A stretch of 64,000 nucleotides of DNA, from the NCBI GenBank assembly GCA_050633305.1, contig JBOEGF010000036.1, forward strand, positions 8,521 through 72,520. Reading direction: 5' to 3'. The DNA is from Nannocystales bacterium. GTDB taxonomy: Bacteria; Myxococcota_A; Polyangia; Nannocystales; Nannocystaceae. Shown here in pieces: positions 2 through 14,157 of this stretch. The position numbers and the translations under genes were made by a program. A model generated the notes under the pieces. It searched no databases. It was not told where the DNA came from and saw only the letters and a list, made by a program, of their open reading frames with translations. How positions within the stretch are numbered: position 1 is the first letter of the stretch; each line of letters opens with the position of its first letter.

Positions 2-850
2 GAGCCCTTCACAATCGAGCTCCGCGCCACCCCGGGTGACGCGGCGGGACGCTCCCTCTCTGCTGAGTTCGCTTGGGTTGGCGCAGGATCGAGCCTGCAG
101 CATGAACTCGTCCACCTTGTAACGTGGACGGAGGACGGGGTCTCCGCACCCGCGCTGGCCGAGGGGGTTGCGGAGGGGCTCGGCGCCAGCCGGACCGCCG
201 AGATCTGGTTCGATGCGTTCGCCCAGGAGCACCCCGAGGACTTCGCCTTTTTGCCTGCGGAGGAGTTTCAGCCCGATACCGGTACGTACTACGTCGGAGC
301 CGCGCAGATGGTTGCGGCGCTCGAGCGGCGATACGGTATCGAGGCCGTTCGCCGTGCTTATCAACGCGCACCTCGCGACGGGCCGCCCGATGAGATCGAG
401 GACGCTTATCTCGAGGCCTTCGGGGACAGTCTCTACGAGACCTTCGACGAAACCGCGGACGAGCGGCCTTGCGGGTTCCGTCAGTGGCAATGCGACGCCT
501 CCGTCGTTCCCACCGTCGAGCTGCCCTTCGGGTTCACCGCGGCCCAGACCGCAGCGTGCGGGGATGAAACACTCATCGGGGCCGAACTTTCCGGGGACAG
601 CCACTGGTACCCCGAGGCGGTGTTCGCCCTCGAGCTCGACCAGGAGACGTCGTTCATCTTCGAGGAGGACAACGCGTTCGTCCACGGGTTCACTTGTCGA
701 ACCACCTGCGAAGGCCCGAACGGGGTCCCTCCGGATGTCGTCTATCCCTACGTCGGCGTGCCGACCACGCTTCCAGCGGGGCGATACTTCTTTCGGGTTC
801 GGTCGGGAGACCGCGTGAATCCGTTCTCGTTTTCGCTGCGGCCGGCTTGA
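2..850 (+). CDS. C-terminal part of a hypothetical protein with an HExxH (HELVH) motif; 5' end lies outside the window
   Basis: The frame is open from nt 2 with no stop, and the listed ORF 251..850 is its tail. HELVH is encoded at nt 101-115. The composition is protein-like. Confidence 0.45.
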   Translation, partial: EPFTIELRATPGDAAGRSLSAEFAWVGAGSSLQHELVHLVTWTEDGVSAPALAEGVAEGLGASRTAEIWFDAFAQEHPEDFAFLPAEEFQPDTGTYYVGAAQMVAALERRYGIEAVRRAYQRAPRDGPPDEIEDAYLEAFGDSLYETFDETADERPCGFRQWQCDASVVPTVELPFGFTAAQTAACGDETLIGAELSGDSHWYPEAVFALELDQETSFIFEEDNAFVHGFTCRTTCEGPNGVPPDVVYPYVGVPTTLPAGRYFFRVRSGDRVNPFSFSLRPA

Positions 851-1027: not shown

Positions 1028-2365
1028 TCACTGCTGGAGCGTGACCTCCACGTGTGTCCCATGACGCACGGCACGACCGAGCGAGCGCGGGTCATCAGGG
1101 TGGCCGACGTAGCAGGCGAACAAGTGGACCGCCGTGATGCGGTCCAACAGAGACTCGAGCTTCCGCTCGAGCTCTTTACCAGACATCGGCCCGAGAACTC
1201 TGTTCGTGTTCTCGAATGTGACGCTCGATCCCCACGCCGCGTGGACTGTGCGCGCGTGGGATTCGGCGTTCCGGATCGTTGCGACATCGGGATCGAGGAG
1301 GCTGAGCGGTCCCTCATCCCTCCACATGTCCTGCAGCGTGCCGATGAGCTTTCCGACGGACTTCCTGGCCTCCACGCTCTCCTTGGTGAGCGATGCCAAC
1401 ACCTGAAGCACAGGCCTGTAGGCGCGTTCCGCGAGCTTTCCGATCAGGCTCGCGCACGCTCTGCAACGGTGCTCCGGTTGGATGGCGGTCTCAAAGGCGA
1501 GGAAATCGGGCAGGCACTCCACCAGACCGAGACCCACATCTCGCTGCAGCTGAGTCATGAGCTCCTCGTAGCGGTGCGCGGAAAGGCCGGCATCCCAGCG
1601 CGTCTTCATCCACGCGTGCAGCTCCGCCGCTTCTGGCTTCGCGAGCAGGCTGTCGCGAGCGGCGCGAGTGCTCTCTCGGAATGAGTCGATGAACTCCTCT
1701 TCCTCGAACAACGGTTTCAGCCAGACCTTCGGGTCGCCGTCCTGAGCGACGAGGCCTCCCATGACGGCGACGAGAGTCGTCGGCTCGTGCAGCAAGGCGC
1801 CATTGTCGCCTATGAGGCTGATTGCCGTCGCGAGGTGGGATCGGCTAATCATCTGCTGCATCCAGTACGGGAAGCGTCCGAACCGCTCCTCACGGCGGAG
1901 GCGGCGAATGCCAAGCTCCTGGGCAAGCTTCATCGCCGTCCCGAAGAGCGTCTTCCGCTTCTGAACGAGCTCGGCCCTTAGACCGGCGTCGAACCCCTGT
2001 ACTCGGAGGCCGACTGTTAGCTCCGCGCACGCGATGTCGGCGTGCATGTACTCGACCCGCAAGCGTGCCTCCGAGTCCAGGGCGAGCTCCAGGGCCAGCA
2101 GCTTTTCGAGACCGTAGCGGGCCTTGCCGAGCCTCGCGAGCTCAGGCTCGTCTTGAAAGGTCGCGCGCAGCCGAGCGGCCTCCACGAGATGTCGGTGGAT
2201 CTCGACCCAGAGTTCAAAGATCTCCAGAGCCTCGAGCTCGAGATCCTGCGCGTGCTCCTCGATCTCTGCGAGCGTGGACCGTGCTTCGTCCCACTGCTGC
2301 CCGTCGCGAAAGCCGGTGACGGCCTGGAATCGCCCCTTCATGAACTCTGCAATCATGCTGATCAC
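1028..2365 (-). CDS. Hypothetical 445-aa protein with a C-terminal HEPN-like R-x4-H motif (IRNAESH)
   Basis: Long ORF with coding-like composition, divergent from the XRE-ImmA operon. R365-N-A-E-S-H370 is encoded at nt ~1256-1273. Confidence 0.6.
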   Translation of the reverse strand: MISMIAEFMKGRFQAVTGFRDGQQWDEARSTLAEIEEHAQDLELEALEIFELWVEIHRHLVEAARLRATFQDEPELARLGKARYGLEKLLALELALDSEARLRVEYMHADIACAELTVGLRVQGFDAGLRAELVQKRKTLFGTAMKLAQELGIRRLRREERFGRFPYWMQQMISRSHLATAISLIGDNGALLHEPTTLVAVMGGLVAQDGDPKVWLKPLFEEEEFIDSFRESTRAARDSLLAKPEAAELHAWMKTRWDAGLSAHRYEELMTQLQRDVGLGLVECLPDFLAFETAIQPEHRCRACASLIGKLAERAYRPVLQVLASLTKESVEARKSVGKLIGTLQDMWRDEGPLSLLDPDVATIRNAESHARTVHAAWGSSVTFENTNRVLGPMSGKELERKLESLLDRITAVHLFACYVGHPDDPRSLGRAVRHGTHVEVTLQQ

Positions 2366-2430
2366 CTCGATCTCTCCTCGGCCATCCTCGAATTGCCCAA
2401 CAGCCCACCGCCATCCAGCGCCGGCCCCTT

Positions 2431-2446
2431 CTTGTCAGCTTGTCAC
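2431..2446. promoter_or_regulatory. Tandem CTTGTCA(G/C) direct repeat in the divergent intergenic region; candidate operator
   Basis: CTTGTCAG CTTGTCAC lies 36 nt upstream of the GTG start of the XRE-ImmA gene, in the 116-bp divergent promoter region 2366-2481. Confidence 0.25.
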
Positions 2447-2481
2447 GTGCGACGAAATCGTCAATGTGATAAGTTGAGATC

Positions 2482-3648
2482 GTGCTCCCCACACACCACC
2501 TCGCGGCCAATCTGCGGCGGTTCCGTACCGCGCAGGGCTTGAGCCAGAGCGCACTCGCGGAGCGCGCCGGCCTGTCGCGCGTCGGCTACCGAGACCTCGA
2601 AACCGGCAAGTCGACCCCGCGTCCTGACACCCTTCAGAGTCTCGCCGATGCCCTCGGCGTCGCCATTCCGCATCTCCTTGCGCCCGTTCGCGAACTTCAC
2701 CACGTCCGGTTCAGAGCCGACCGTCAGCTGGCGAAGCGCGAGAACATTCTCGCCGAGGTCGGCCGTTGGCTCGACGGCTATCAGGAAGTCGAGCAAGCCC
2801 TTGAGTCGACCGCGGACTGGAAGCTCGCAGGGCTCGCCAAGAAGCTTCAGAGGTCTACACGCAGTGGCCAAGGTCTCGCCGAGTACGCAGCCCAGGAGGT
2901 CCGCAAGGACCTCGGCCTCGACGGCCAGCTCATTCGGGATATGTGCGGTCTGCTCGAGGACAACGGCGTCAAGCTGCTGACCGTGCCCGTCGCCACCGAT
3001 GGCTTCTTCGGACTCTCCGTAGGCCCGCAAGACGGTGGCCCCGCGGTCGTCATCAATGTTTGGGAGCGCATTACCGTCGAGCGCTGGATCTTCTCCGCCG
3101 CGCACGAACTCGCTCACCTGCTTCTGCATCCCACCGCCTACGACGTCGAGCGCGCCGACGAGAACCTCGAGGAAGAGAGAGAGGCCGACCTCTTCGCCAG
3201 TTTCTTCATTATGCCCCAGGACCTGTTTCAGACCGAGTGGGACGAGGCTCGCGGGCTCGGCCTCGTCGACCGGGTCTTCAAGCTCAAGCGGATTTTCAAG
3301 GTGAGCTGGCAGACCGTCGTCTACCGCGTCACTCTGGGGCTGCCCCGAGCGGAGAAGGACGCCATCTGGACCAGTTTTCGAGATGCCTATCGGGCGCGAT
3401 TCGGACACGAAGCGCCAACGACCACCGAGCCCGAGGCCCTCACCGCCGATGCCTTCACCGGACCCCCGATCTCCCGGGCCGCCGATGAACCCGCCCGCTT
3501 CCTCGGCGACGACTTCCAGGAAGACCGACTCTGTGGACTCGTCCGCAAGGCCCTCGAAACCGAGAACATCTCGCTCGGCCGGGGCGCCGAGATCCTCGGC
3601 CTGAGTCTCCTCGACATGCGAGAGTTGCGGAACTCCTGGATCGACTGA
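2482..3648 (+). CDS. XRE-family HTH fused to an ImmA/IrrE (M78, DUF955-type) zinc metallopeptidase
   Basis: The N-terminus LRRFRTAQGLSQSALAERAGLSRVGYRDLETGK is a classic XRE HTH. The central WIFSAAHELAHLLLH is the HExxH of ImmA/IrrE peptidases, followed by EREADLFASFFIMP. Confidence 0.85.
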   Translation: MLPTHHLAANLRRFRTAQGLSQSALAERAGLSRVGYRDLETGKSTPRPDTLQSLADALGVAIPHLLAPVRELHHVRFRADRQLAKRENILAEVGRWLDGYQEVEQALESTADWKLAGLAKKLQRSTRSGQGLAEYAAQEVRKDLGLDGQLIRDMCGLLEDNGVKLLTVPVATDGFFGLSVGPQDGGPAVVINVWERITVERWIFSAAHELAHLLLHPTAYDVERADENLEEEREADLFASFFIMPQDLFQTEWDEARGLGLVDRVFKLKRIFKVSWQTVVYRVTLGLPRAEKDAIWTSFRDAYRARFGHEAPTTTEPEALTADAFTGPPISRAADEPARFLGDDFQEDRLCGLVRKALETENISLGRGAEILGLSLLDMRELRNSWID

Positions 3649-3652
3649 GCCT

Positions 3653-4147
3653 GTGACACGCGCTCTGTTGATCGTCGATGCGTGTGTGCTCATCGACTTC
3701 TGGCATGCCGACCCCAGCGTCGTCGCTTTGCTCTGTCGGCACGTCGGACAGCTGAACGTCGCGCAGGGCGTACTCGCCGAAGTTCACGGGCTCGATTCCA
3801 GCACCGCCCAAGACGCAGGCCTTCGAGTCATCCACCCAGAGTTCGAGGTCTTGGCCGAAGCTGCCACCGCGAAGCGTGGCCTGAGCTACCAGGACCAGCA
3901 GTGCCTCATCCTCGCGCGGATACACGGCTGGACCTGTGTCACCAACGACGGCCGGCTGCGACGGGTGTGCGCCGAGGATGGCGTCGACGTGCTCTGGGGT
4001 CTCGAGCTGCTCGCACAACTCGTCGAGGCGGCCGGAATCCCGGCCGCACAAGCCGTTGCACTCGCCTACGAGATGGCCCGCGCTAACCGTTACCTGACCG
4101 CCGCGATTTTGACCCGGTTCGAGGACCGCGTTTGTAGCCTCGATTGA
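3653..4147 (+). CDS. PIN-like domain protein (VapC/DUF4411-type putative nuclease)
   Basis: Has LLIVDACVLIDF at the N-terminus and a later CVTNDGRLRR, the acidic-residue pattern of PIN folds. The GTG start lies 5 nt after the upstream stop. Confidence 0.65.
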   Translation: MTRALLIVDACVLIDFWHADPSVVALLCRHVGQLNVAQGVLAEVHGLDSSTAQDAGLRVIHPEFEVLAEAATAKRGLSYQDQQCLILARIHGWTCVTNDGRLRRVCAEDGVDVLWGLELLAQLVEAAGIPAAQAVALAYEMARANRYLTAAILTRFEDRVCSLD

Positions 4148-4204
4148 GCCGCCTCATTGGGGCTGACCGACCACACCCCGTGGTATCAACATCTACGCCG
4201 CGCC

Positions 4205-7200
4205 ATGAAGCCGAACACCTCTCAGCGGTCCCATCTCCTTGGCGCGCTGCGTGCCGACCTCATCGGCCCCTACGCCCCCGAGACGGGCGAGGAGGTCCTC
4301 GTGAAGCCGCCCATGCGGTGGTATCTCACCGGCTTCCTCGTCCCCGAAGGCGAGCTCAACCACGACACCGCTGCCGCCGGTGACGAAGATGAAGAGCTGG
4401 GTGCCGGCGATGAGCCTCAGGGCGAGGACAACCCCGAGCCGGCCGCCAAGCAGCGGCCCATCCTGCCCAGCGCCATCGGTCTGAGCGTCCTACTCCCCGA
4501 TGCCCCCAGCTCCGGCCCGGACACCGTCGTCCTCGACCTCGCGTGGGGCGAGTACGTCCTGCACAACAAGAAGCAGGACGTCGAGAAGCTGTGTGCTGCG
4601 CGGCGGATCCCCGACAAGCGTGCCTTCACTGGTAAGGGGCTCGCTCGAGACCTCTGGGAGCGCGTAGCGAGGCAGGCCAAAGGCGTCACCCTCGATCTCA
4701 GCAAGGCAAAGAACGGCACGCTCGAGAAGTTCAATGTCCCGGGCGCTCCGGGCGTCAAGATCGAGTACCGCGTCGAGCGGCTCGAGCCCGCCGTCGCCGA
4801 CAAGCTGCGCATCGGCAAGCCCGGCCAGGCCGCACGGGCGCTCGCCGTCTTCCTCGTCAACGGTCGCACCATCATGGCTGACCGCGAGCAGGACGGCCGG
4901 GGCTACTCCCGCGAGCTCAACGCACAGAGCCTCTTCCAGCTCGACCTCAGCCTGCGCGCCAGCGGGGGCCTGCTTCCTCGGCCCGACGCCCACTTCAGCC
5001 GGTCCCAGGACTTCGACGACCGGATGGTCGACGTTCAGTTTCGTGACGAGGTCGAGTGGGTCGTCGGGCACGGCATCGCCGCCGAGCCGATCTGCGTCGA
5101 CCCCTCCAAGCGACCGCACCCCAAGACCAACCCCGCCCTCGGTGCCAAGATCGAGTGGTTCCCGCGAACCCGCGTCGCCCGCGTCAAGCCGATCAACACC
5201 GACGACCTCGGCGTCGACGTCGACATGTTCAGCCTCGCCGACATCGACTCCCCCGAGGGCGTCGACAAGGCCCTCGGCACCCTCCCGGCCGCCTATGCCG
5301 CCTGGATCCACAACCAGGCCAAGATCCCCCTCGAGGAGCCCGGGCATTGCCAGACCCAAGCCGAGCTCGTTCGCAGAGCCCAGACCGCGCTCGAGCGCAT
5401 CCAGGCCGGCATCGATCTGCTGAAGGAAGACCCTGAGCTTCGTCAGGCCTTCGCCTGGGCCAACCGCGCCATGGCCGAGGTCGCCAAGCGCCGGATCAAG
5501 GTCCCCCGGCCCACGTGGCGCCTTTTCCAGCTCGCCTTCCTCCTGCTCAACATTCGCGGCGTCTCCGACCCGTCCCACAAGGACCGCCGCGACGTCGAGC
5601 TGCTCTTCTTCCCCACCGGCGGGGGCAAGACCGAGGCCTACCTCGGAGTCATCGCGATGACCCTGCTGCTTCGCCGGATGCGAGGGCAGACCCGCGAGGA
5701 CGGAGGTCTCGGGGTCACCGTACTGCTGCGCTACACCCTGCGGCTGCTCACCCTCGACCAGCTCGAGCGCGCCTCTGCCCTCGTCTGTAGCCTCGAGCTG
5801 ATCCGGCGAGAGCACCCCGACCAGCTCGGCAAGGAGCGGTACTCCATTGGTCTGTGGGTCGGCCGCTCCGGCTCTCCGAACTATCTCAAGGAGGCCAAGA
5901 AGGCGATCGAGGCTTTCAAAGGCAACACCGCGGAGTCGCGCGGATCCCCGTTCCCGCTGGTCAAGTGCCCTTGGTGCGAGACCGAGATCAAGGGCCGGCT
6001 CATGGCCACCCTCCCGCACGGCAAGGCCGCTCCCACGCGGACCGTCGTTGTCTGCGCCAACCGGGACTGCGAGTTCTCCAGCTCGGGTCGCGGCGAGGCC
6101 GGCAAGAAGGTCGGCGAGCTTCCCGTCCTCTTTGTCGACGAGCACATCTACGACGAGCTGCCCTGCTTCGTCGTCGCGACCGTCGACAAGTTCGCCATGC
6201 TCACCCACCGCGGCCAGGCCGGAAAGCTCTTCGGTCGTGTACACAGCTACACTGACCAGGTCGGCGAGCACCGCCGCTACTGGGGCGGTGGGGACGGCGA
6301 GAACCACGTCCGCCCCGGCAAGGGGGCCGAGCTTCTGCCCGATGGCCTGAGGCCCCCCGAGCTGATCGTGCAGGACGAGCTGCACCTGATCTCCGGCCCG
6401 CTCGGCACCATGGTCGGCCTCTTCGAGACGCTCGTCGAGTCCCTGTGCGAACTCGGGGATCCAGAGCATCGCACCGGACCCAAGATTATCGCCGCGACCG
6501 CCACCGTTCGCCGGGCGAGCGAGCAGGTCCGGGCGCTGTACGGTCGCGACAACGCCGAGCAGACCAAGCTCTTCCCGCCCCAGGGCGTCGATGCCTGGCA
6601 GACCTTCTTCGCCGAGCGCGACGCTGATGCCAACGAGCGCATGTACGTCGGCGTCGCTGCTGCGGGCCGCTCCATGAAGCGGAACCTGCTCACCACCTAC
6701 CTCGCCTTGCTCGGTTCAGGCGAGGCACTGTTCAAGCAGGACCCCAAGTCCGCCGACCCCTACAAGACCGTCGTCGGCTACTTCAACAGCCTCCGCGAGC
6801 TGGGCGGCATGCGCCGTCTCGTCGATGACGAGGTCCACTCCCGCGCCGGCAAGCTCGACGAGCGGATCCCGCTGGACCACCGGGCCCCGCATCTGTGGTT
6901 CGCCAACCGAGAGATCGGCGAGCCTGTCGAGCTGACCAGCCGAGAGCGAACCTCCAACATCAGCCGCAACAAGGCCCGCCTCGAGACCGGCTTCCTCACC
7001 GATGGCGAGACGAAGAAGGACCGCGACGCCCTCACCCCCGTCGACGTCGCCCTCGCCAGCAACATGATCGCGGTCGGCGTTGACATCGACCGGCTCGGCA
7101 TCATGGTCATGGCCGGCCAGCCCAAGACCACAAGCGAGTACATTCAGGCCAGCAGCCGCGTGGGCCGGGACGACAAGCGCCCCGGGCTCGTGGTCACCGT

Positions 7201-7786
7201 CTACAACCTGCACAAGCCTCGCGACCGCTCGCACTACGAGCACTTCGTCGCGTATCACGAGAGCTTCTACCGCTACGTCGAGGCGCAGAGCGTTACCCCG
7301 TTCTCCCTGCCTGCGCTCGATCGCGGACTCGCGTCGGTCGTCGTCGGCATGGTCCGGCATACCCGAGAGCCCAAGCTCGCCGCGCCGCGGGGTGCCGAGG
7401 AGACCGAGGCACTCGGTCGCGCCATGCCCTCGGTGGCGGATGTGCTTGCCACGCGCGCCGCCGCCCAGACCGAGGACCCCGCGATGTCGATGGAACATGC
7501 CGTCGTCACCCGGGCCAAGACCATCGGGGACAAGTGGCGAAACATCATCGACCCCACCGTCGACAGTGCGGGCTCCAAGGGACGCTACTGCTACTCGCCG
7601 TATGAGCGGACTGCCGCCAACGCCAAAGCGTTGATGCGGACGCCCGAGCAAGACGCCTCGGCGCCCGACGACGAGAAGATCTCCTACACCGACAATCGCT
7701 ACCCCTTCGTCGCGCCGACCTCCATGCGCGACGTGGAGCCGAGTATTGCGCTTTGGGTCCGCCGCCAACCGAAGAAGAACGACTGA
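4205..7786 (+). CDS. drmA: DISARM DrmA-like SF2 helicase (~1190 aa)
   Basis: Motif I is FFPTGGGKTEAYLG (nt ~5606-5640) and motif II is QDELHLISGPLG (DELH at 6374-6385). A long N-terminal region precedes the helicase core. The gene sits immediately upstream of a DUF1998 gene. The listed ORF starts at TTG 4157; ATG 4205 is preferred. Confidence 0.75.
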   Translation: MKPNTSQRSHLLGALRADLIGPYAPETGEEVLVKPPMRWYLTGFLVPEGELNHDTAAAGDEDEELGAGDEPQGEDNPEPAAKQRPILPSAIGLSVLLPDAPSSGPDTVVLDLAWGEYVLHNKKQDVEKLCAARRIPDKRAFTGKGLARDLWERVARQAKGVTLDLSKAKNGTLEKFNVPGAPGVKIEYRVERLEPAVADKLRIGKPGQAARALAVFLVNGRTIMADREQDGRGYSRELNAQSLFQLDLSLRASGGLLPRPDAHFSRSQDFDDRMVDVQFRDEVEWVVGHGIAAEPICVDPSKRPHPKTNPALGAKIEWFPRTRVARVKPINTDDLGVDVDMFSLADIDSPEGVDKALGTLPAAYAAWIHNQAKIPLEEPGHCQTQAELVRRAQTALERIQAGIDLLKEDPELRQAFAWANRAMAEVAKRRIKVPRPTWRLFQLAFLLLNIRGVSDPSHKDRRDVELLFFPTGGGKTEAYLGVIAMTLLLRRMRGQTREDGGLGVTVLLRYTLRLLTLDQLERASALVCSLELIRREHPDQLGKERYSIGLWVGRSGSPNYLKEAKKAIEAFKGNTAESRGSPFPLVKCPWCETEIKGRLMATLPHGKAAPTRTVVVCANRDCEFSSSGRGEAGKKVGELPVLFVDEHIYDELPCFVVATVDKFAMLTHRGQAGKLFGRVHSYTDQVGEHRRYWGGGDGENHVRPGKGAELLPDGLRPPELIVQDELHLISGPLGTMVGLFETLVESLCELGDPEHRTGPKIIAATATVRRASEQVRALYGRDNAEQTKLFPPQGVDAWQTFFAERDADANERMYVGVAAAGRSMKRNLLTTYLALLGSGEALFKQDPKSADPYKTVVGYFNSLRELGGMRRLVDDEVHSRAGKLDERIPLDHRAPHLWFANREIGEPVELTSRERTSNISRNKARLETGFLTDGETKKDRDALTPVDVALASNMIAVGVDIDRLGIMVMAGQPKTTSEYIQASSRVGRDDKRPGLVVTVYNLHKPRDRSHYEHFVAYHESFYRYVEAQSVTPFSLPALDRGLASVVVGMVRHTREPKLAAPRGAEETEALGRAMPSVADVLATRAAAQTEDPAMSMEHAVVTRAKTIGDKWRNIIDPTVDSAGSKGRYCYSPYERTAANAKALMRTPEQDASAPDDEKISYTDNRYPFVAPTSMRDVEPSIALWVRRQPKKND

Positions 7787-7790
7787 AGCC

Positions 7791-9716
7791 ATGGCACGAG
7801 CAAGCAAGACTGGAGGCAAGGGCGGCAAGCCGCGCCCCGACGGCGAACTGCGGCAGAGCCAGATGATCACCACGTACGGGCCCGGTGCCCTCGTCGACCT
7901 GGTCGCGGACGCCGTCCTGATCCCTGGCCTCGAGCACTGGCACTACAACGGAGCTTCGGGCTACGGCATCGAGCACGACCGGCTGGCCCAGAACCTGCGC
8001 AAGCGGGGCCTCAAGCTGTCCAAGGGGTTGCCGTTTCGAGCGCCGCCCGTCAACGCCGACGAAGACCCCCACCGTGGATGCGGCATCGGGGCCGTGGAGT
8101 TTCCTAGCTGGTTCGTGTGCCCGCAGCGGGGGTGCGGACAGCTGTTGCACAAGCGGGATACCGAGCACCGCAGTGGACGCCGGGTCCACCGCTGCGTGAG
8201 CGCGAAGAAGGACAGCAAGCTCGTTCCGGTCCGTTTCGTCATGGCCTGCAAGAACGGCCACCTCGACGACTTTCCGTGGAATTGGTTCGTGCACAAGGAG
8301 AAGGGCAGCATTTGTGCCGCGCCTGAGCTGCGCCTCACCGACAGCGGCAGCGGCGACCTCAGCGACGTCTTCGTGCGGTGCGATGGCTGCGGCGAGCGTC
8401 GTTCGATGGCTCAAGCCAGGGGCGAGAAGGCGCTACCTGGCTGTAAAGGCAAGCGTCCGTGGCTGGGCTACGGCGTTGGCGACAACAACGTCCGCGAGGA
8501 GTGCACCGAGGACCAGCGGTTGTTGCTGCGAACTGCGAGCAACGGCTACTTCTCCCTTGTCGAAAGCGCGCTGTCGATCCCGGTGCACAGCGGGCTGAAG
8601 GAGGACGTCAAGGCGTTCTTCGACCAGTACGAGGCCAAGCAGCTTCGCAAGCTCGACTCGCAAGCGAAGGTTGAGCTGATGCGCGAGATGCTTCCGTGCA
8701 TCAGCGATGACGCTCCCGCCTGCATCGCCAAACTCTCCGATGCCGAGCTCTGGGAGCGCCTGCAGACCTTCCGCACCGAACGCGACGCCGACGTGGACTC
8801 TGGACCCGTTCGAGCGACGGAATACGCCACGATCCTCACCGCGGGCCCCGAGCGGCCGGGGAGCAAGTTCGACAGCTACGGGGAGCAGCGCGACTACTAC
8901 GCCGAGCGTCCCGCTCCCGGCACCTGCCCGCTGCCGCAGGGGGTTCACGACCTCGTCCTGCTCAAGCGCCTCCGAGAGGTCCGGGTGCTCATGGGCTTCA
9001 CGCGCCTGGAGTCCAAGTCCCAGGACATCTACGGCGAGTTCAACCTTGGGTCCGCGATCGCATCGGTCTCGGCCGCCAGCGATTGGCTTCCCGCCTCAGA
9101 GATCCGCGGCGAGGGCGTGTTCGTGGAGCTGGACATCGACCGGCTCGAGGCCTGGGAGCAGCGGGAGGCGGTGCTGGAGAGAGAAGCCAAGCTCCGGACC
9201 GGGTTTTTCGCTCGGTTCCCGAAAGCCGCCGAACAGGGGATCGACTTTCCCGGCGCCCGCTTCTATCTGCTGCACACGCTTTCCCACCTCTTGATCACAC
9301 AGCTCGCGCTGACGTGCGGCTATGCGGCGTCGGCGATCCGCGAGCGGATCTACTGCAGCCTGCGCGGTTCGGACACCAAGGCTCCGATGGCCGGGATTCT
9401 GCTGTCGACCGGAAGCGCCGGCAGCGAGGGCACGCTGGGTGGACTCGTCGAACAAGGCCGGCGCATCGAGTTCCACCTCACAGAAGCCTTGCGACGGGCC
9501 AACCTGTGCTCGCACGACCCCGTGTGCGCACGGCACAGTCCCTCCAGCGGCATCCCCGGGCGCTCCCTGCTCGGGGCTGCGTGCCATGGCTGCCTCTTCA
9601 TCGCCGAGTGTTCGTGTGAGCGCGCAAATCAGTATCTCGACCGTGCGCTCGTCGTCCCGATCTTGGGTGAGCCCAAGGCCGAACAACTCGCCTTCTTCGA
9701 CCCCGTCCGCGGCTGA
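7791..9716 (+). CDS. drmB: DISARM DrmB-like DUF1998 protein
   Basis: The N-terminus has LRQSQMITTYGPGALVDL. The C-terminal Cys cluster is CSHDPVCARH...GAACHGCLFIAECSCERANQYLDR (nt ~9505-9640), typical of DUF1998/MrfA-type Zn modules. The ATG lies 4 nt after the drmA stop. Confidence 0.8.
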   Translation: MARASKTGGKGGKPRPDGELRQSQMITTYGPGALVDLVADAVLIPGLEHWHYNGASGYGIEHDRLAQNLRKRGLKLSKGLPFRAPPVNADEDPHRGCGIGAVEFPSWFVCPQRGCGQLLHKRDTEHRSGRRVHRCVSAKKDSKLVPVRFVMACKNGHLDDFPWNWFVHKEKGSICAAPELRLTDSGSGDLSDVFVRCDGCGERRSMAQARGEKALPGCKGKRPWLGYGVGDNNVREECTEDQRLLLRTASNGYFSLVESALSIPVHSGLKEDVKAFFDQYEAKQLRKLDSQAKVELMREMLPCISDDAPACIAKLSDAELWERLQTFRTERDADVDSGPVRATEYATILTAGPERPGSKFDSYGEQRDYYAERPAPGTCPLPQGVHDLVLLKRLREVRVLMGFTRLESKSQDIYGEFNLGSAIASVSAASDWLPASEIRGEGVFVELDIDRLEAWEQREAVLEREAKLRTGFFARFPKAAEQGIDFPGARFYLLHTLSHLLITQLALTCGYAASAIRERIYCSLRGSDTKAPMAGILLSTGSAGSEGTLGGLVEQGRRIEFHLTEALRRANLCSHDPVCARHSPSSGIPGRSLLGAACHGCLFIAECSCERANQYLDRALVVPILGEPKAEQLAFFDPVRG

Positions 9717-9720
9717 CCCG

Positions 9721-10602
9721 ATGACGCAAGACAAGTTCTCCCTGCGCACCGTCACCCCTGAGGTGCTCGAGGCGGCTTGGCAGCTCTTCACCGCGTTGCC
9801 GGCCCGTGCCCGCGTCACCGAAGCGCACGTCGTCGACGAGCAGCTCCGCGTCGCGCTCGTCGATTTTCTCGGCCAGCCCGCTTGGATCCTCGCAGGCATG
9901 CTCGAGGCCGTTCTCTCCGAGCGGGGTCGCATCGAGACCACGCAGCCACCCGCCGGAGTCGCACCGCGGCCCGTGTTCCGTCTGGAGCGCCGCTACGGGA
10001 ACAACACACCTGAGTTGGTTTGGAGCGGACCCACAGGTGGCCGCAGCGGCGCACGAGCGACCCGGCACGTCATCGAAGAGCTATTTCGAGCCGCGAAAAC
10101 GAGCGTGTTCATCGCTGGCTACAGCTTCTACCGCGCAGCGGAGTTGTTCGAGCCGCTCCGCGAACGGGTGAACCGTCAGCCCGAGAACGGGGCTCCAGCC
10201 TTAAAAATCCGCATCGTCATCGATTGCTCTGGCGTCAAGGACCCCTCGATGTCGACGGACGAGATCGTTCAGAAGTCGATCGCAGAGTTCGTACGGTCGT
10301 GTCCGCAGGTCCGGGAACTCGGCGCGCGGGTTCAGTACTACGTGCCTTCCGCGTCGCGCACCGACAAGGGAAGAGCACTGTGCAGCATGCACGCGAAGTG
10401 CATCGTCGTAGACGACGAGTCCGTCCTCGTTGGATCCGCAAACTTCTCGAACCGTGGCCGTGATGATCGGAACCTTGAAGTCGGCGCGTTGATTCGCGAT
10501 GCCAATTTCGCGTCCGTGCTCCTGGCGGCCTGGAGAGACGTCTCGAAGGACCTCGTGGACGTCTCGCTGCCTCCGAAGTCGTCGGGATCGTTGCCTGGTT
10601 AA
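9721..10602 (+). CDS. drmC: DISARM DrmC-like phospholipase D (HKD) family nuclease
   Basis: Single HKD motif SMHAKCIVVDDESVLVGSANFSNRG (His codon at 10390-10392). The ATG at 9721 lies 4 nt after the drmB stop. Confidence 0.8.
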   Translation: MTQDKFSLRTVTPEVLEAAWQLFTALPARARVTEAHVVDEQLRVALVDFLGQPAWILAGMLEAVLSERGRIETTQPPAGVAPRPVFRLERRYGNNTPELVWSGPTGGRSGARATRHVIEELFRAAKTSVFIAGYSFYRAAELFEPLRERVNRQPENGAPALKIRIVIDCSGVKDPSMSTDEIVQKSIAEFVRSCPQVRELGARVQYYVPSASRTDKGRALCSMHAKCIVVDDESVLVGSANFSNRGRDDRNLEVGALIRDANFASVLLAAWRDVSKDLVDVSLPPKSSGSLPG

Positions 10603-10718
10603 GCGCCTTCGTCGGAACCGGAGGCCTCGAGTACCTCTTCGGACGGGTCGTCGCCAGCGATGACCACGCGCCCGAGTACCACCAGCGCTGGGCACTCGAT
10701 GGCGCCCAAGAACGCGAC

Positions 10719-13040
10719 ATGTTCGAGGCCTTCGTCGACGAGATCATGGACCGCTGGCGGCGGTTCCCCGACCTTCACGTCTACCACTACGCCCCCTACG
10801 AGCCCGGCGCCATCAAGCGCCTCATGGGCCGCTACGCCACCCGCGAGGATGAGGTCGATCGCATGCTCCGCGCTGGCGTCTTCGTCGACCTCTACTCCAT
10901 CACCAAGCAAGCCCTGCGCGCCAGCGTCGAGCGCTACTCCATCAAGGACCTCGAGCAGTTCTTCGGCTATCAGCGCCAGATCGAGCTGCGCGAAGCCTCC
11001 ATGAACCTACGCGCCTTCGAGCGCACCCTCGAGCTGCACCAGGTCGACGTCGTCCCCCAACCCGTCCGCGTCGCCGTGCAGGCCTACAACCGCGACGACT
11101 GCGTCTCCACCCTGCGGCTGCGCGATTGGCTCGAGGGTCTGCGCGCGGGCCTCGTGGAGGGTGGGGAGGACGTCCCGCGTCCCGTGCCTCGCGACGCCGA
11201 GCCGAGTGAGGAGGTCGACGAGCGCCAGCAGCAGGTGCTTGCCCTCATGCAGCAGCTGCTGCGAGACGTTCCCGTCGACCGCGAGGAGCGTTCGGAGGAG
11301 GAACACGCGCGCTGGCTGCTGGCCCACATGCTGGGTTGGCACCGCCGCGAGGGCAAGGTCCCGTGGTGGGAGTACTTCCGCCTGGCCGAGTTGGACGAAG
11401 AAGAACTCATGGATGAGAGGGCAGGGGTTGCGGGGCTCGAGTTCGTCGAGCCCGCGGGTGGGACGGCGAAGTGTCCCATCCACCGCTACCGGTTTCCGTC
11501 GCAGGACACCGCCGTGCGAGACGAGGACGAGCTCCACACCGGGGTCGACGCCAAGTTCGGAAAAGTGGTCGGCATCGATCTGACCGGTCGAACCGTCGAC
11601 ATCAAGAAGCGTGGGGACACGGCCGACCTCCACCCGAGCGCCGCTTTCGCACACTCCACCGTCGGAACCACCGTCCTGTCGGACTCCCTCTTCCGCCTCG
11701 GCGAGTGGGTCGCTGCCCACGGGGTCAACGCGCACGGCCCGCTCAGAGCAGGGCGGGACCTCCTGTTGGGTCTCGTGCCTCGATGCTTGGGGCCTGCCCA
11801 ACCCGGCGCTGCCCTCCAGCGCACGGGCGAGACCGCGCTCGAAGCCGCTCGCCGCCTTGCCCTGGAACTCGACGGTGGCGTCCTCGCCATCCAAGGCCCT
11901 CCCGGCGCCGGCAAGACCTTCACCGGGGCCCGCATGATCTGCGAACTCGTCCGCGCCGGGAAGAAGGTCGGCATCACCGCTGGCGGGCACAAGGTGATCC
12001 GAAACCTGCTCGAGGCCGTCGTCGAGGCCGCTGCACAGGAGGGTCTCTCGATTCGCTGTCTTCAGAAGGTCAAGGGCAAGGCCGCCAAGGACGAAGGCCA
12101 GCCGATCCGCGAGACCGCGAAGAACCAGGACCTGGACGCCGCGCTCGCCGACGGCACTGTCGATGTTGCCGCGGGCACCGCATGGCTCTGGTCCCGGGAG
12201 GCCGCCGCCGAGTCCCTCGACGTCCTCTTCGTCGACGAGGCCGGGCAGATGTCCCTCGCGAACGTCCTCGCCGTCTCCCAGGCCGCCCACAGCGTCGTCC
12301 TCCTCGGCGACCCCCAACAGCTCGAGCAACCCCTCCAGGGCACTCACCCCGAGGGCACCGACGTCTCCGCCCTCGAGCACCTCCTGCGCGGCAAGCAGAC
12401 CATCGCCGCCGACCGCGGCTTGTTCCTGGCCGAGACCTACCGCCTGCACCCCTCTATCTGCCAGCTCACCTCCGAGCTGTCTTACGAAGGCCGCCTCACC
12501 TCGCGCCCCGAGCTCGCCCAACAAGCCCTCCTCGGCGACACCCCCTTCGCCGGTGCAGGCCTGTGGACCGTCGCCGTTGCGCACGACGGCAACCGCAACA
12601 GCTCCAGCGAAGAGGTCGAAGCCGTCGCCGAGATCTACGAGGGACTCCTCTCTGGCGATGTCTCCTGGCGGAATCAGGACGGTGTCGAAGCCAAGCTCAC
12701 CGCCGCCGACATCCTGATCGTCGCCCCCTACAATGCCCACGTTGGCCTCCTCGGCGAGCGGCTGCCGGGCGCCAAGATCGGAACCGTCGACAAGTTCCAG
12801 GGCCAAGAGGCACCCGTCGTCATCTACTCCATGGCGACCTCATCCCCCGACGAGGCGCCGCGGGGGATGGAGTTCCTGTTCAGCCTCCACCGGCTCAACG
12901 TGGCCACATCGAGGGCTCGCTGCGCCTGTATCCTCGTCGCAAGCCCGCGCTTGTTCGAACCCGACTGCCGGACGCCCAGGCAGATGCAGCTCGCGAACGC
13001 GTTCTGCCGCTGCGCGGAGCTGGCGACGACGGTCGAATAG
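10719..13040 (+). CDS. N-terminally truncated TM0106-type RecB-like nuclease / SF1 (DNA2-Upf1-like, AAA_11/AAA_12) helicase
   Basis: Has HVYHYAPYEPGAIKRLMGRYATREDEVDRMLR (RNase H-like exonuclease region) and Walker A AIQGPPGAGKTFTGA, plus DEAGQ and C-terminal SF1 motifs. In-frame homology (FVGTGGLEYLFG) extends upstream to nt ~10605 with no start codon and no RecB/Cas4-like domain. Confidence 0.7.
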   Translation: MFEAFVDEIMDRWRRFPDLHVYHYAPYEPGAIKRLMGRYATREDEVDRMLRAGVFVDLYSITKQALRASVERYSIKDLEQFFGYQRQIELREASMNLRAFERTLELHQVDVVPQPVRVAVQAYNRDDCVSTLRLRDWLEGLRAGLVEGGEDVPRPVPRDAEPSEEVDERQQQVLALMQQLLRDVPVDREERSEEEHARWLLAHMLGWHRREGKVPWWEYFRLAELDEEELMDERAGVAGLEFVEPAGGTAKCPIHRYRFPSQDTAVRDEDELHTGVDAKFGKVVGIDLTGRTVDIKKRGDTADLHPSAAFAHSTVGTTVLSDSLFRLGEWVAAHGVNAHGPLRAGRDLLLGLVPRCLGPAQPGAALQRTGETALEAARRLALELDGGVLAIQGPPGAGKTFTGARMICELVRAGKKVGITAGGHKVIRNLLEAVVEAAAQEGLSIRCLQKVKGKAAKDEGQPIRETAKNQDLDAALADGTVDVAAGTAWLWSREAAAESLDVLFVDEAGQMSLANVLAVSQAAHSVVLLGDPQQLEQPLQGTHPEGTDVSALEHLLRGKQTIAADRGLFLAETYRLHPSICQLTSELSYEGRLTSRPELAQQALLGDTPFAGAGLWTVAVAHDGNRNSSSEEVEAVAEIYEGLLSGDVSWRNQDGVEAKLTAADILIVAPYNAHVGLLGERLPGAKIGTVDKFQGQEAPVVIYSMATSSPDEAPRGMEFLFSLHRLNVATSRARCACILVASPRLFEPDCRTPRQMQLANAFCRCAELATTVE

Positions 13041-13352: not shown

Positions 13353-13562
13353 TCACCCGCCCGAAAGATACGGCGGCTCTTCCGGTAGCTTTGGAGAACC
13401 GTCTTCGTTCCTCCGGCCGCGCCGGATCTCTGCCGCGAGATGGTCTTCCCGAGAGGTATTCTTGAGCCGTTCGAGCATGCGCTGGAAGACGCGCTCCGCT
13501 TCGCGAACCGAGGGGTCCACGATGACCCTCTTCGTGCTTGGCTCCGACATCAGCTTAACCAT
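13353..13562 (-). CDS. Small hypothetical ORF (~69 aa, MVKLMSEPSTKRV...) overlapping the end of the DUF3990-like gene
   Basis: Internal Met of listed ORF 13353..13712. It overlaps the upstream gene end by 8 nt, which suggests coupling. No recognisable family. Confidence 0.3.
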   Translation of the reverse strand: MVKLMSEPSTKRVIVDPSVREAERVFQRMLERLKNTSREDHLAAEIRRGRRNEDGSPKLPEEPPYLSGG

Positions 13563-14157
13563 GACGAGCTTGCCCTGCCTGTGCAAGTTGCGCGGGTTCC
13601 ACCGGGTCGTTGCTCGTCTCGAGTGACGGCCGGAACAGCCCGATGAGCGCTTCTGGCCTTCGAACGACGATCTGGATGTGATTCTCCCCGAGAATCTCGG
13701 AGCCGGGCGCAACGGGCCTCCCCTCTTGAAACAGACCTCGCACGGTGTGGAACGCGGCGCCCTCCACCTCCTCCATCTGGTCGCAAAAGCTGTTCACCAA
13801 GAAGCAGTCCAGGTCGCGCCTCTTGTCCCGGTTCTGCGGGAACTCATCGCCCCTCTCCTGAAGGACAGTCGCAATCTCGGCGAGCCGGCGCGTGTGATCC
13901 GTGTCGAGAAGGTCGAGGCAGTTCCCGAGCTGGATAATCGCTCCAACCACCGCGAACTTAGGTCCCTCCTGGGAGCCCCACCTCTCCCGCGCCCAATCAT
14001 GGGCCCTTTGCAAGCCGAACTCCCAGAAGTAGATGCCATGGCCAAGCCAATCCCACGAGTTCTTGCTGTGCTTGAACCCCTCACCTTCGAGTAGCAGGCG
14101 GTCGGCAACCTCTTTCGAGCAAGCGTGGTAGCCGATGACTCTGCGGTCGTACTGCAT
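13555..14157 (-). CDS. DUF3990-like protein (predicted ADP-ribosyltransferase-type fold)
   Basis: Has VIGYHACS ... DWLGHGIYFWE ... AHDWA ... HIQIVVRRPEAL. This His / aromatic-Tyr pattern and its spacing resemble DUF3990. The assignment is from memory of the family. Confidence 0.5.
   Translation of the reverse strand: MQYDRRVIGYHACSKEVADRLLLEGEGFKHSKNSWDWLGHGIYFWEFGLQRAHDWARERWGSQEGPKFAVVGAIIQLGNCLDLLDTDHTRRLAEIATVLQERGDEFPQNRDKRRDLDCFLVNSFCDQMEEVEGAAFHTVRGLFQEGRPVAPGSEILGENHIQIVVRRPEALIGLFRPSLETSNDPVEPAQLAQAGQARHG

What the first reader, a model, noticed from the sequence alone, without database searches (positions are those of the whole stretch)
2366..10602. DISARM-type core (drmA-drmB-drmC) without any methyltransferase, in a five-gene operon with an XRE-ImmA fusion and a PIN protein
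Seen in sequence: five same-strand ORFs are packed with gaps of only 4-57 nt (3648/3653, 4147/4205, 7786/7791, 9716/9721). The third has helicase motifs FFPTGGGKTEAYLG and DELH after a ~470-aa N-terminal region. The fourth ends in a DUF1998-type Cys cluster. The fifth carries a single HKD motif, HAKCIVVD...GSANFSNRG. Established knowledge: helicase + DUF1998 + PLD is the conserved DISARM core. Described DISARM classes also carry DrmMI or DrmMII methyltransferases plus DrmD or DrmE. Here the flanks are a HEPN-like gene on the left and a truncated nuclease/helicase on the right. The only methyltransferases in the window (21438, 26207) are small class I SAM enzymes more than 10 kb away in a housekeeping context. 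Inference: this may be a DISARM derivative in which the usual methylation partner is absent or encoded elsewhere. Control or toxicity may instead be supplied by the co-transcribed protease-repressor fusion and the PIN nuclease.
Basis: partly seen in the sequence, partly recalled or inferred. Interest (0 to 1): 0.78.

Follow-up and report, generated by a model that had tools for sequence, protein, structure and literature searches.

The report
DISARM core cassette missing its methylase
This is a genuine, intact DISARM anti-phage core (drmA-drmB-drmC) in a myxobacterial defence island, sitting next to a separable repressor-protease/PIN toxin pair; its usual methylase partner has been pushed away or lost, which is a modest variation on a known system rather than a new one.

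Summary
Five tightly packed same-strand genes encode an XRE-M78 fusion, a PIN protein, DrmA, DrmB and DrmC, and no DNA methyltransferase, DrmD or DrmE is detectable anywhere in the 64 kb window.

- The proteins are class-1 DISARM orthologues. In most relatives drmD-drmMI lie directly upstream of drmA.
- The drmMI|drmA junction is a frequent insertion slot. In one subclade relative (L096) DrmMI lies 12.7 kb upstream of drmA, beyond McrBC. The window shows only 4.2 kb upstream.
- In the closest long contig (96% DrmA) no DrmMI or DrmD lies within 28 kb upstream, so real loss is plausible.
- drmABC is a discrete block (window ~4166-10581) found with and without the XRE-M78/PIN pair. It is under strong purifying selection (dN/dS 0.05-0.22).
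- The XRE-M78/PIN pair is RosmerTA-like. It also heads a non-DISARM operon elsewhere.
- Its association with DISARM (CapH-CapP fusion plus vapC-like gene) is already published. So is the finding that class-1 DrmABC works without its methylases and causes no autoimmunity.

Verdict: a new variant of a known kind, of moderate-to-low interest.

The parts
2..850 (+). 3' part of a ~354-aa gene of unknown function; it serves as a synteny anchor
   Evidence: 93% identical to the gene that follows the McrC fragment in L001, and 84% identical to the gene directly upstream of drmA in L096. No Pfam hit.
1028..2356 (-). HEPN-like protein (442 aa), transcribed divergently from the XRE-M78 gene
   Evidence: No Pfam, PADLOC or NCBIfam hit. 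It travels with XRE-M78/PIN in L008 and L091. R362, N363 and H367 (RNxxxH) are invariant across 14 diverged homologues. The family is tiny: 14 representatives among 1.84 billion. The exact 442-aa product is on record.
2366..2481 (.). Divergent intergenic region with a conserved block upstream of the XRE-M78 start: GCTTGTC...GTCAA...GATAAGTT, about 2436-2473
   Evidence: The block is conserved in WIN, L008, L091 and L096 although the rest of the spacer has diverged. Calling it a promoter or operator is inference. The sigma-70 consensus scan found nothing.
2482..3648 (+). XRE-HTH fused to an M78 (ImmA/IrrE) zinc-peptidase, 388 aa, with an intact HELAH motif; RmrA-like / CapH-CapP-fusion-like
   Evidence: Pfam HTH_3 3.9e-15 and Peptidase_M78 7.6e-13. 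PADLOC RmrA 5.7e-33, capP 3.8e-15, capH 2.8e-09. NCBIfam spr1629-type repressor/antitoxin at 78.9 bits, below its cut-off.
3653..4147 (+). PIN-domain nuclease (164 aa), the putative toxin or effector of the pair
   Evidence: The Pfam PIN hit is weak (7.8e-4, below cut-off), but homologues carry PIN/DUF3368. D9, E43, D81 and D99 are invariant in 30 sequences. The AlphaFold model has pLDDT 95.4, and its top PDB matches are mostly PIN/VapC domains.
4166..4204 (+). Left edge of the drmABC block, including a conserved ~27-nt leader (CGTGGTATCAAC.TCTACGCCGCGCC) just before the drmA ATG
   Evidence: Homology to L001, L002 and L091 begins at 4166-4179 whatever gene lies upstream. The leader is conserved in six loci.
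4205..7786 (+). DrmA, the DISARM SF2 helicase (short 'DrmAS' form, 1193 aa)
   Evidence: NF038325 at 1015 bits, above the 950 cut-off and full length. PADLOC 8.9e-254. 7S9V_A 2e-165. Walker A K475 and D724/E725/H727 are invariant in the clade. dN/dS 0.075-0.22.
7791..9716 (+). DrmB (DUF1998/MZB protein, 641 aa)
   Evidence: NF038324 at 551 bits, above the 240 cut-off. Pfam MZB 3.3e-08. 7S9V_B 7.9e-100. The Cys cluster is conserved. dN/dS 0.05-0.11.
9721..10602 (+). DrmC (PLD-family nuclease, 293 aa, a single HKD motif)
   Evidence: PADLOC DrmC 6e-37. PLDc_2 4.8e-12. NF038319 at 116.9 bits, below its cut-off of 133. HxK(x)4D...GSxN is conserved in relatives. dN/dS 0.10-0.22. Homology to relatives ends at 10559-10581.
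10605..13040 (+). 5'-truncated TM0106-type RecB-like nuclease / SF1 helicase; first ATG at 10719. It marks the right edge of the block.
   Evidence: Only positions 304-462 of TIGR03491 and 46-164 of RNase_H_2 are present. The frame stays open upstream as far as the drmC stop without a start codon. It is not present next to drmC in any relative.

Best explanation
The locus is a mosaic stretch of a Nannocystales defence island. It is not a single five-gene system.

Module 1 (window ~4166-10602) is a class-1-type DISARM core, drmA-drmB-drmC.
- In this family drmD-drmMI normally sit directly upstream of drmA (shown).
- In this sublineage other defence genes have been inserted at that junction. These include a McrBC-like pair, a HEPN-like gene and the XRE-M78/PIN pair. 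drmD and drmMI have been displaced many kilobases away or lost (shown in relatives).
- The core is still maintained by selection (shown).
- It most likely works as shown for Serratia. DrmAB is held off by a trigger loop. It loads on foreign DNA with single-stranded 5' ends, translocates using ATP and blocks replication. The DrmC PLD nuclease helps with degradation. Tolerance of host DNA does not strictly need the methylase. This mechanism is inferred by orthology.

Module 2 (2366-4147, perhaps with the divergent HEPN-like gene at 1028-2356) is a RosmerTA-like pair.
- The XRE-M78 protein represses its own promoter and neutralises or gates the PIN nuclease. A phage or DNA-damage cue triggers proteolysis (inferred).
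- It lies 57 nt upstream of drmA on the same strand, and no intrinsic terminator was detected. Its derepression may therefore also boost drmABC by read-through, as a CapH-CapP-type regulator would. This coupling is optional (inferred).

My estimate is about 50% that no cognate methylase acts with this core, and about 40% that one is encoded off-window or in trans.
For: Identity of the core:
- DrmA and DrmB pass the NCBIfam cut-offs and match the solved Serratia class-1 DrmAB structure.
- DrmC matches DrmC models.

Canonical relatives:
- Of 44 metagenomic loci with at least 4.5 kb upstream of drmA, 21 have DrmMI within 600 nt, 16 have it 1.8-10.5 kb upstream, and 7 have none.
- The SNF2 protein upstream of DrmMI is the DrmD equivalog (966 bits against a 610 cut-off). 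Its homologues precede DrmMI in more than 20 loci.

Displacement and decay inside the clade:
- L010 has DrmD-DrmMI, three inserted genes, then drmA.
- L003 keeps only an 89-aa DrmMI remnant.
- L096 (DrmA 84% to the window) has a DrmMI-like gene, then McrBC, then XRE-M78, PIN and two more genes, then drmABC.
- L001/L099 (96%) have no DrmMI or DrmD across 41 kb.

Modularity:
- Homology to L001, L002 and L091 is confined to ~4166-10581.
- The pair is present in WIN, L008, L091 and L096 and absent in L001 and L002.
- The pair heads a TIR/RNase H operon in L098.
- An unrelated XRE-M78 + DUF4411 pair fills the same drmMI|drmA slot in L075.
- A 27-nt drmA leader is conserved in every context.

Function retained:
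- dN/dS is 0.05-0.22 with dS 0.25-1.6.
- Catalytic motifs are intact.

The pair:
- RmrA 5.7e-33.
- PIN fold and an invariant D-E-D-D tetrad.
- ImmA-type antitoxins pair with PIN toxins (PMC10440598).

Literature on methylase-independent action.
Against: - The region left of window position 1 is unseen, so a DrmMI in cis, as in L096, cannot be excluded.
- Nothing is known about the rest of the genome.
- No expression data exist. The promoter and terminator scans are uninformative in this 66% G+C genome.
- The pair is linked to drmABC in four of six subclade loci. An analogous pair recurs in L075 and in Nocardia. That is more than a casual neighbour might show, so functional coupling could be stronger than I assume.
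- DrmC falls below its NCBIfam cut-off.
- The PIN protein matches no PADLOC RmrT model.
Confidence: 0.55

Rival explanations
1. This is an ordinary class-1 DISARM that merely looks methylase-free. drmMI, with or without drmD, lies just beyond the left end of the window or elsewhere in the genome. It is separated from drmA by embedded defence genes, still methylates the host and works with DrmABC.
For: - In L096, a member of the same subclade, a 1382-aa Eco57I/MmeI-type DrmMI-like gene lies 12.7 kb upstream of drmA with McrBC and other genes in between.
- 16 of 37 methylase-bearing loci have 1.8-10.5 kb of inserted genes between drmMI and drmA.
- The window shows only 4.2 kb upstream of drmA.
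Against: - The relative that shares the window's left flank (L001/L099; 93% nucleotide identity up to window position 1) has no DrmMI or DrmD from 28 kb upstream to 10 kb downstream of drmABC.
- L008 has none within 10 kb.
- L003 shows DrmMI actually decaying in the clade.
Confidence: 0.35
2. The five genes are one co-evolved system in which the XRE-M78 protease-repressor and the PIN nuclease replace methylation as the control or toxicity arm of DISARM.
For: - The genes are on the same strand with 4-57 nt gaps.
- The pair is linked to drmABC in WIN, L008, L091 and L096.
- An analogous pair sits directly before drmA in L075.
- A set of DISARM loci carries a CapH-CapP fusion plus a vapC-like gene.
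Against: - drmABC at 96% and 84% identity lacks the pair yet shows the same purifying selection.
- Extra genes are inserted between PIN and drmA in L091 and L096.
- In L075, L096 and Nocardia the pair coexists with DrmMI, so it does not substitute for it.
- The pair occurs without DISARM in L098.
- Only 3 of 80 distant DISARM loci have any XRE/M78 gene nearby.
Confidence: 0.12
3. The XRE-M78 protein is mainly a CapH-CapP-type stress-responsive transcriptional switch for the downstream defence genes, PIN and drmABC, rather than an antitoxin.
For: - capP 3.8e-15 and capH 2.8e-09.
- CapH-CapP fusions associated with DISARM are published.
- A conserved motif block lies upstream of its start.
- The pair heads different defence operons in L098, L091 and L096.
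- No terminator-like site was found on the + strand between 900 and 11200.
Against: - The best HMM matches are to RmrA antitoxins.
- Published CapH/CapP modules lie upstream on the opposite strand from their operon, whereas this one is co-directional.
- drmA carries its own conserved leader and is expressed behind divergent genes in L001 and L002.
- The C-terminal ~100 residues are unassigned and look too short for the GAF domain of CapP.
Confidence: 0.3
4. The drmABC genes are a decaying remnant of a DISARM system that lost its methylase and no longer functions.
For: - DrmMI remnants exist in the clade (L003).
- The neighbouring McrB genes look degraded in L008 and L001.
- The gene right of drmC is truncated.
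Against: - All three ORFs are intact in six loci, with dN/dS 0.05-0.22 at dS up to 1.6.
- Catalytic residues are invariant.
Confidence: 0.05

Closest known systems
Class 1 DISARM (drmD-drmMI-drmA-drmB-drmC; Serratia sp. SCBI, PDB 7S9V)
   Same: DrmA and DrmB are orthologous (2e-165 and 7.9e-100 to 7S9V chains; NCBIfam DrmAS and DrmB pass their cut-offs). A DrmC-type PLD follows in the same order. Relatives at 38-66% identity carry DrmD and DrmMI directly upstream.
   Different: No DrmD or DrmMI in the 64 kb window or in the nearest relatives' flanks. DrmA is the short form (1193 aa against 1325 aa). Foreign defence genes occupy the position of drmMI.
[quoted passage not shown] 2022, Nocardia wallacei FMUON74)
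   Same: An XRE-HTH/M78 fusion protein and a PIN (VapC-like) gene lie immediately beside drmA-drmB-drmC.
   Different: In the published cases the pair lies upstream of drmD-drmMI on the opposite strand. Here it is co-directional, 57 nt from drmA, and DrmD and DrmMI are missing.
RosmerTA (RmrT toxin + RmrA Zn-peptidase antitoxin) and ImmA-antitoxin/PIN-toxin pairs (Millman 2022; Ernits 2023)
   Same: The XRE-M78 protein matches 14 RmrA models (best 5.7e-33). It forms a two-gene unit with a small nuclease-fold partner 4 nt downstream. The pair is mobile between contexts.
   Different: The partner is a PIN domain that matches no PADLOC RmrT model. Toxicity and neutralisation are untested.
DISARM-like cassette associated with canonical McrBC operons (Bell et al. 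2024, 2025; mentioned but not described)
   Same: In the five subclade relatives examined (L001, L002, L008, L091, L096) a McrB-like (DUF8426) and McrC-like (DUF2357/PDDEXK_7) pair lies upstream of drmABC.
   Different: McrBC is not visible in the window itself. It looks degraded in L008 and L001. The published description is too brief to compare architectures.

Membership tests
DISARM (core) | DrmA SF2 helicase | tested here: met
   NF038325 equivalog at 1015 bits, above the 950 cut-off and full length. PADLOC 8.9e-254. 7S9V_A 2e-165.
DISARM (core) | DrmB, a DUF1998/MZB protein encoded separately just after DrmA | tested here: met
   NF038324 at 551 bits, above the 240 cut-off. Pfam MZB 3.3e-08. 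7S9V_B 7.9e-100. The gap after drmA is 4 nt.
DISARM (core) | DrmC PLD-family nuclease | tested here: met
   PADLOC DrmC 6e-37. PLDc_2 4.8e-12. The HKD motif is intact. However, NF038319 scores 116.9 bits, below its cut-off of 133.
DISARM class 1 | DrmMI N6-adenine methyltransferase adjacent to the core | tested here: not met
   None in the 64 kb window by PADLOC, Pfam, tblastn or motif search. It could lie upstream of window position 1, as in L096. The rest of the genome cannot be tested here.
DISARM class 1 | DrmD SNF2 helicase | tested here: not met
   No hit in the window. The SNF2 gene next to drmC in L001 is not DrmD (64 bits against cut-offs of 610 and 950).
DISARM class 2 | DrmMII C5-cytosine methyltransferase and DrmE | tested here: not met
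   No PADLOC hit and no C5-methyltransferase motif in the window ORFs.
DISARM (function) | Host DNA methylation and restriction of phage or plasmid DNA | not testable with these tools
   This needs methylome sequencing and challenge assays.
RosmerTA | RmrA: HTH plus Zn-peptidase (M78) antitoxin | tested here: met
   14 RmrA models hit, best 5.7e-33 over residues 11-284. HTH_3 and Peptidase_M78 are present. The HELAH motif is present.
RosmerTA | An adjacent RmrT toxin recognised as such; toxicity neutralised by RmrA | tested here: inconclusive
   The PIN protein matches no PADLOC model. PIN partners of ImmA antitoxins are predicted in the literature. Toxicity cannot be tested here.
CapH/CapP regulator | An HTH repressor and an M78 protease encoded upstream of, and opposite to, the regulated operon; a C-terminal GAF domain in CapP | tested here: not met
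   capP 3.8e-15 and capH 2.8e-09 are only partial matches. The orientation here is co-directional, while published modules are divergent. The ~100-residue C-terminal tail has no assigned domain.
PIN/VapC nucleases | PIN fold with four conserved acidic residues | tested here: met
   The model has pLDDT 95.4. Its top PDB matches are mostly PIN/VapC domains. D9, E43, D81 and D99 are invariant.
ARMADA / Druantia / Dpd (other YprA-family systems) | A YprA helicase with fused DUF1998 and C-terminal nuclease, plus a BrxHII + PglX or deazaguanine gene set | tested here: not met
   The helicase and the DUF1998 protein are split into two genes, as is typical of DISARM. The best models are DrmA and DrmB, with DruE only at about 1e-4. 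No PglX or Dpd genes are in the window.

The most novel reading that the evidence does not exclude
A Nannocystales sublineage runs a naturally methyltransferase-free DISARM. In this reading drmABC has become a self-contained, exchangeable three-gene cassette. It carries its own short leader, tolerates host DNA purely through DNA-structure sensing, and is gated on demand by an upstream XRE-M78/PIN switch. It sits in an island whose McrBC covers modified DNA.
Probability: 0.3. Interest if true: 0.55.

Novelty: new variant of a known kind. Interest (0 to 1): 0.35.

Why it matters
If this lineage truly has no cognate methylase, it would be natural evidence for something shown so far only by gene deletions in one Serratia system. 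That is, the DISARM core can tell self from non-self without epigenetic marking, and it can be kept by selection as a free-standing cassette.

The loci also show that the drmMI|drmA junction is a recurrent landing site for other defence genes: McrBC, GmrSD, Uma2, OLD-type ATPases and XRE-M78/PIN pairs. This matters for annotation. Rule-based tools that require adjacency will miscall split systems as incomplete or methylase-less.

The practical payoff is modest, because every component and most of the pairings are already in the literature.

Tried and rejected
- An exact-sequence look-up of the window's DrmB found nothing. Only later did I learn that the window's own proteins are on record (NCBI MAG Nannocystales bacterium, MGH1347545-50).
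- The genome-contig scan gave only 6 loci.
- The metagenome scan returned only distant relatives at 38-52% identity. These were useful for defining the canonical architecture but not for the close clade.
- The sigma-70 promoter and intrinsic-terminator scan was uninformative: 0 promoters, and terminator-like sites only on the minus strand at chance level.
- No tRNA gene lies in the window to serve as an integration site.
- The repeat search in the XRE-M78 upstream spacer gave only a weak palindrome.
- HEPN-like protein: no hit in Pfam even at E<=1, in PADLOC or in NCBIfam. A profile search of the PDB gave nothing meaningful. The single-sequence AlphaFold model had pLDDT 46 and was not used.
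- The C-terminal 124 residues of DrmA alone did not align to 7S9V. The residue proposed to sense methylation (Serratia V1296) therefore could not be checked.
- I considered the SNF2 gene beside drmC in L001 as a DrmD. I rejected it because it scores far below both DrmD cut-offs and resembles the SCO1167/ZorD/DpdE type.
- I considered that drmABC might be a class-2 system with drmMII deleted downstream. I rejected this because the orthologues are class 1 and no C5-methyltransferase trace exists.

Full report
**Observation**

The five same-strand ORFs are real and spaced as described.

| Gene | Coordinates | Gap to next |
|---|---|---|
| XRE-M78 | 2482-3648 | 4 nt |
| PIN | 3653-4147 | 57 nt |
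| DrmA | 4205-7786 | 4 nt |
| DrmB | 7791-9716 | 4 nt |
| DrmC | 9721-10602 | – |

GC3 is 0.74-0.88 against GC2 of 0.44-0.59, which marks these as coding frames in a 66% G+C genome. All quoted motifs are present.

The family assignments are firm for the two main proteins.
- DrmA: PADLOC 8.9e-254; NCBIfam DrmA equivalog at 1015 bits against a cut-off of 950, full length.
- DrmB: PADLOC 7.7e-85; NCBIfam DrmB family at 551 bits against 240.
- DrmC: PADLOC 6e-37. It has PLDc_2 and an intact HKD motif but falls just under its NCBIfam cut-off (116.9 against 133).
- DrmA and DrmB match the solved Serratia class-1 DrmA:DrmB complex at 2e-165 and 7.9e-100.

The exact proteins are on record from an NCBI MAG labelled Nannocystales bacterium. 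There PGAP already names the helicase 'DISARM system helicase DrmA'.

**No methylase in the window**

I scanned 42 further ORFs covering the rest of the window.
- PADLOC gave no DrmD, DrmE, DrmMI, DrmMII, PglX or RM methyltransferase hit at E<=1e-5.
- Pfam showed only UbiE/COQ5-type small-molecule methyltransferases.
- tblastn with four DrmMI proteins and one DrmD from relatives found nothing in the 64 kb at E<0.01.
- A search for amino-methyltransferase and C5-methyltransferase motifs found nothing.

The caveat is important, though: only 4.2 kb upstream of drmA is visible.

**What relatives look like**

DrmA has thousands of homologues, many named DISARM DrmA in Myxococcota. I recovered 80 metagenomic loci at 38-52% DrmA identity.

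Of the 44 with at least 4.5 kb upstream of drmA:
- 21 have a ~1400-aa DrmMI-type methylase within 600 nt upstream on the same strand;
- 16 have it 1.8-10.5 kb upstream;
- 7 have none in the sequence available.

The SNF2 gene before DrmMI is the DrmD equivalog (966 bits against 610). Its homologues precede DrmMI in more than 20 loci. The family is therefore canonical class 1: drmD-drmMI-drmA-drmB-drmC.

The genes embedded between drmMI and drmA are themselves defence genes. They include Uma2 endonucleases, OLD/AAA_15-type ATPases, GmrSD, YhcG/DUF1016, Abi_C, Shedu SduA_C, and one M78 + DUF4411 pair. Embedding of foreign defence genes in DISARM operons has been reported before, for ShdA (PMC10270631).

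**The window's own clade**

Loci are grouped by DrmA identity to the window.

| Locus | DrmA identity | Arrangement |
|---|---|---|
| L092 | 61% | DrmMI and DrmD divergent from drmA |
| L010 | 62% | DrmD-DrmMI, three inserted genes, drmA |
| L005 | 66% | C-terminal end of a DrmMI at the contig edge, 3.5 kb upstream |
| L003 | 64% | only an 89-aa DrmMI remnant |
| L096 | 84% | see gene order below |
| L091 | 83% | McrC, HEPN-like(-), XRE-M78, PIN, 375 aa, drmABC |
| L008 | 96% | McrB (internally deleted), McrC, HEPN-like(-), XRE-M78, PIN, drmABC |
| L002 | 84% | McrB, McrC, six unrelated minus-strand genes, drmABC |
| L001 + L099 | 96% | see text below |

L096 gives the fullest picture of the subclade at 83% identity or more. 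Its gene order is:
- a DrmMI-like gene (1382 aa, Eco57I/MmeI domains)
- two genes
- McrB-like (DUF8426) and McrC-like (DUF2357/PDDEXK_7)
- two minus-strand genes
- XRE-M78 and PIN
- two genes
- drmABC

The L001 contig extended by L099 reads McrB, McrC, an IS, a McrC fragment, the 353-aa gene that also opens the window, seven unrelated genes, then drmABC. It has no DrmMI or DrmD anywhere in 41 kb.

The window aligns to L001 over positions 1-860 and 4176-10577. It aligns to L008 over 1095-10581.

Three conclusions follow.
1. drmABC is a discrete block with edges at about 4166-4179 and 10559-10581.
2. The space between McrBC and drmA is a hypervariable slot.
3. The methylase is retained far upstream in at least one subclade member and is absent from the island in the member most like the window.

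**Is the core still functional?**

Among WIN, L001, L002, L008 and L091:

| Gene | dN/dS |
|---|---|
| DrmA | 0.075-0.22 |
| DrmB | 0.05-0.11 |
| DrmC | 0.10-0.22 |

dS ranges from 0.25 to 1.6. This includes the trio WIN/L001/L008, none of which shows a methylase in the sequence available. Walker A, the DExH box, the Cys cluster and the HKD motif are invariant. A decaying remnant is therefore very unlikely.

**The XRE-M78/PIN pair**

- The 388-aa protein has HTH_3 and Peptidase_M78 with an HELAH motif. It matches 14 RmrA models, RmrA being the RosmerTA antitoxin (best 5.7e-33). It matches capP and capH more weakly.
- The 164-aa protein is a PIN domain. Homologues carry PIN/DUF3368. D9, E43, D81 and D99 are invariant. 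A model with pLDDT 95.4 mostly matches PIN/VapC structures.

The pair is separable from DISARM.
- It is absent in L001 and L002.
- It heads a TIR + RNase H operon in L098.
- This PIN family is absent from all 80 distant DISARM loci.

The association does recur, however.
- In L075 (42% DrmA) an unrelated XRE-M78 (RmrA 1.3e-19) and a DUF4411 PIN (3.7e-30) sit exactly between DrmMI and drmA.
- L026 has a bona fide RmrA (6.5e-144) just after drmC.
- Lau et al. described DISARM systems with a CapH-CapP fusion and a vapC-like gene (10.1101/2022.04.27.489752).
- Ernits et al. note that ImmA-type antitoxins pair with PIN toxins (PMC10440598).
- RosmerTA is defined as a Zn-peptidase antitoxin plus a toxin of unknown function (10.1101/2022.05.11.491447).

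In L075, L096 and Nocardia the pair coexists with DrmMI. It therefore does not replace methylation.

**Operon question**

No + strand terminator-like site was found between the genes, but the scans carry little weight in this genome.

A 27-nt leader directly before the drmA ATG is conserved in six loci. Two of these have a divergent gene upstream of drmA. The cassette can therefore be expressed on its own.

A conserved block upstream of the XRE-M78 start suggests an autoregulated promoter.

Read-through into drmABC is possible but not required.

**Mechanism**

Steps that are shown:
- orthology to Serratia DrmAB;
- intact catalytic motifs;
- purifying selection;
- modularity.

Steps inferred from published work:
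- DrmAB is auto-inhibited by a trigger loop and activated by DNA with a single-stranded 5' end, so discrimination rests on DNA structure (PMC9142583).
- Deleting drmMI and drmMII causes no autoimmunity, and DrmABC alone protects against M13 (10.1101/2021.12.28.474362).
- An acidic, variable N-terminal segment of the window's DrmA, at about residues 45-85 before the conserved ILPS..GLS motif, lies where the C-terminal end of the Serratia trigger loop aligns. That alignment is not significant.

**Comparison and novelty**

Bell et al. mention a DISARM-like cassette frequently associated with canonical McrBC operons, and 'many uncharacterized DISARM-like classes', without describing them (PMC11090510, PMC12458937). 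This locus fits that remark.

Every part is a known family and the pairings have precedents. What is new is documentation of a lineage in which the class-1 core persists under selection while drmD and drmMI are displaced or lost. I rate it a new variant of a known kind, with interest about 0.35.

Noticed in passing
window 10603-13040: The gene right of drmC is a TM0106-type RecB-like nuclease/SF1 helicase lacking about 300 N-terminal residues. Its reading frame continues upstream to the drmC stop with no start codon. The event that set the right edge of the drmABC block therefore cut into this gene.
   Followed up: partly
L008 16470-16697 and 17895-18077: Right after drmC lies a second, 80%-identical copy of the PIN gene's 3' end plus 19 nt of spacer. 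It ends exactly at the left edge of the drmABC block. It is followed by a fragment of the gene that is drmA's divergent neighbour in L001 and L002. This looks like a scar of single-crossover or cassette exchange.
   Followed up: partly
L075 2966-4631: In an unrelated DISARM lineage (42% DrmA) an XRE-M78 protein and a DUF4411 PIN protein sit exactly between DrmMI and DrmA. This is an independent recurrence of the window's arrangement, with the methylase present.
   Followed up: yes
L012-L087 (16 loci), region between drmMI and drmA: The drmMI|drmA junction is a frequent landing site for other defence genes: Uma2 (four times), OLD/AAA_15-type ATPases, GmrSD, YhcG/DUF1016, Abi_C, HipA_2, Shedu SduA_C, and a DDE transposase.
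   Followed up: partly
L099 10001-18435 and L008 4434-5220: The McrBC-like pair upstream of drmABC looks degraded in the closest relatives. L001's contig has a short McrB (738 aa), an IS (DDE ISAZ013) and a duplicated McrC fragment. L008's McrB has an internal deletion.
   Followed up: partly
window 1028-2356 (-): The HEPN-like protein belongs to a very small family: 14 representatives at E<1e-3 among 1.84 billion. E295, Y313, R362, N363 and H367 are invariant. It has no Pfam, PADLOC or NCBIfam model and no usable structure prediction.
   Followed up: partly
window 13555-15423: A 200-aa minus-strand protein matches PD-T4-9_A weakly (2.4e-07). The adjacent 432-aa protein has no family hit. The defence island may extend about 5 kb right of drmC.
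   Followed up: no
window, somewhere in 10719-64000 (ORF not located): One ORF matches PADLOC QatC (6.2e-51; probably a QueC-type enzyme) and another matches mad2 (3e-20). The summary output did not say which ORFs these are.
   Followed up: no
L092 15952-17997: In a 61% relative a UvrD-family helicase (681 aa) is inserted between drmB and drmC, and DrmB is longer (789 aa).
   Followed up: no
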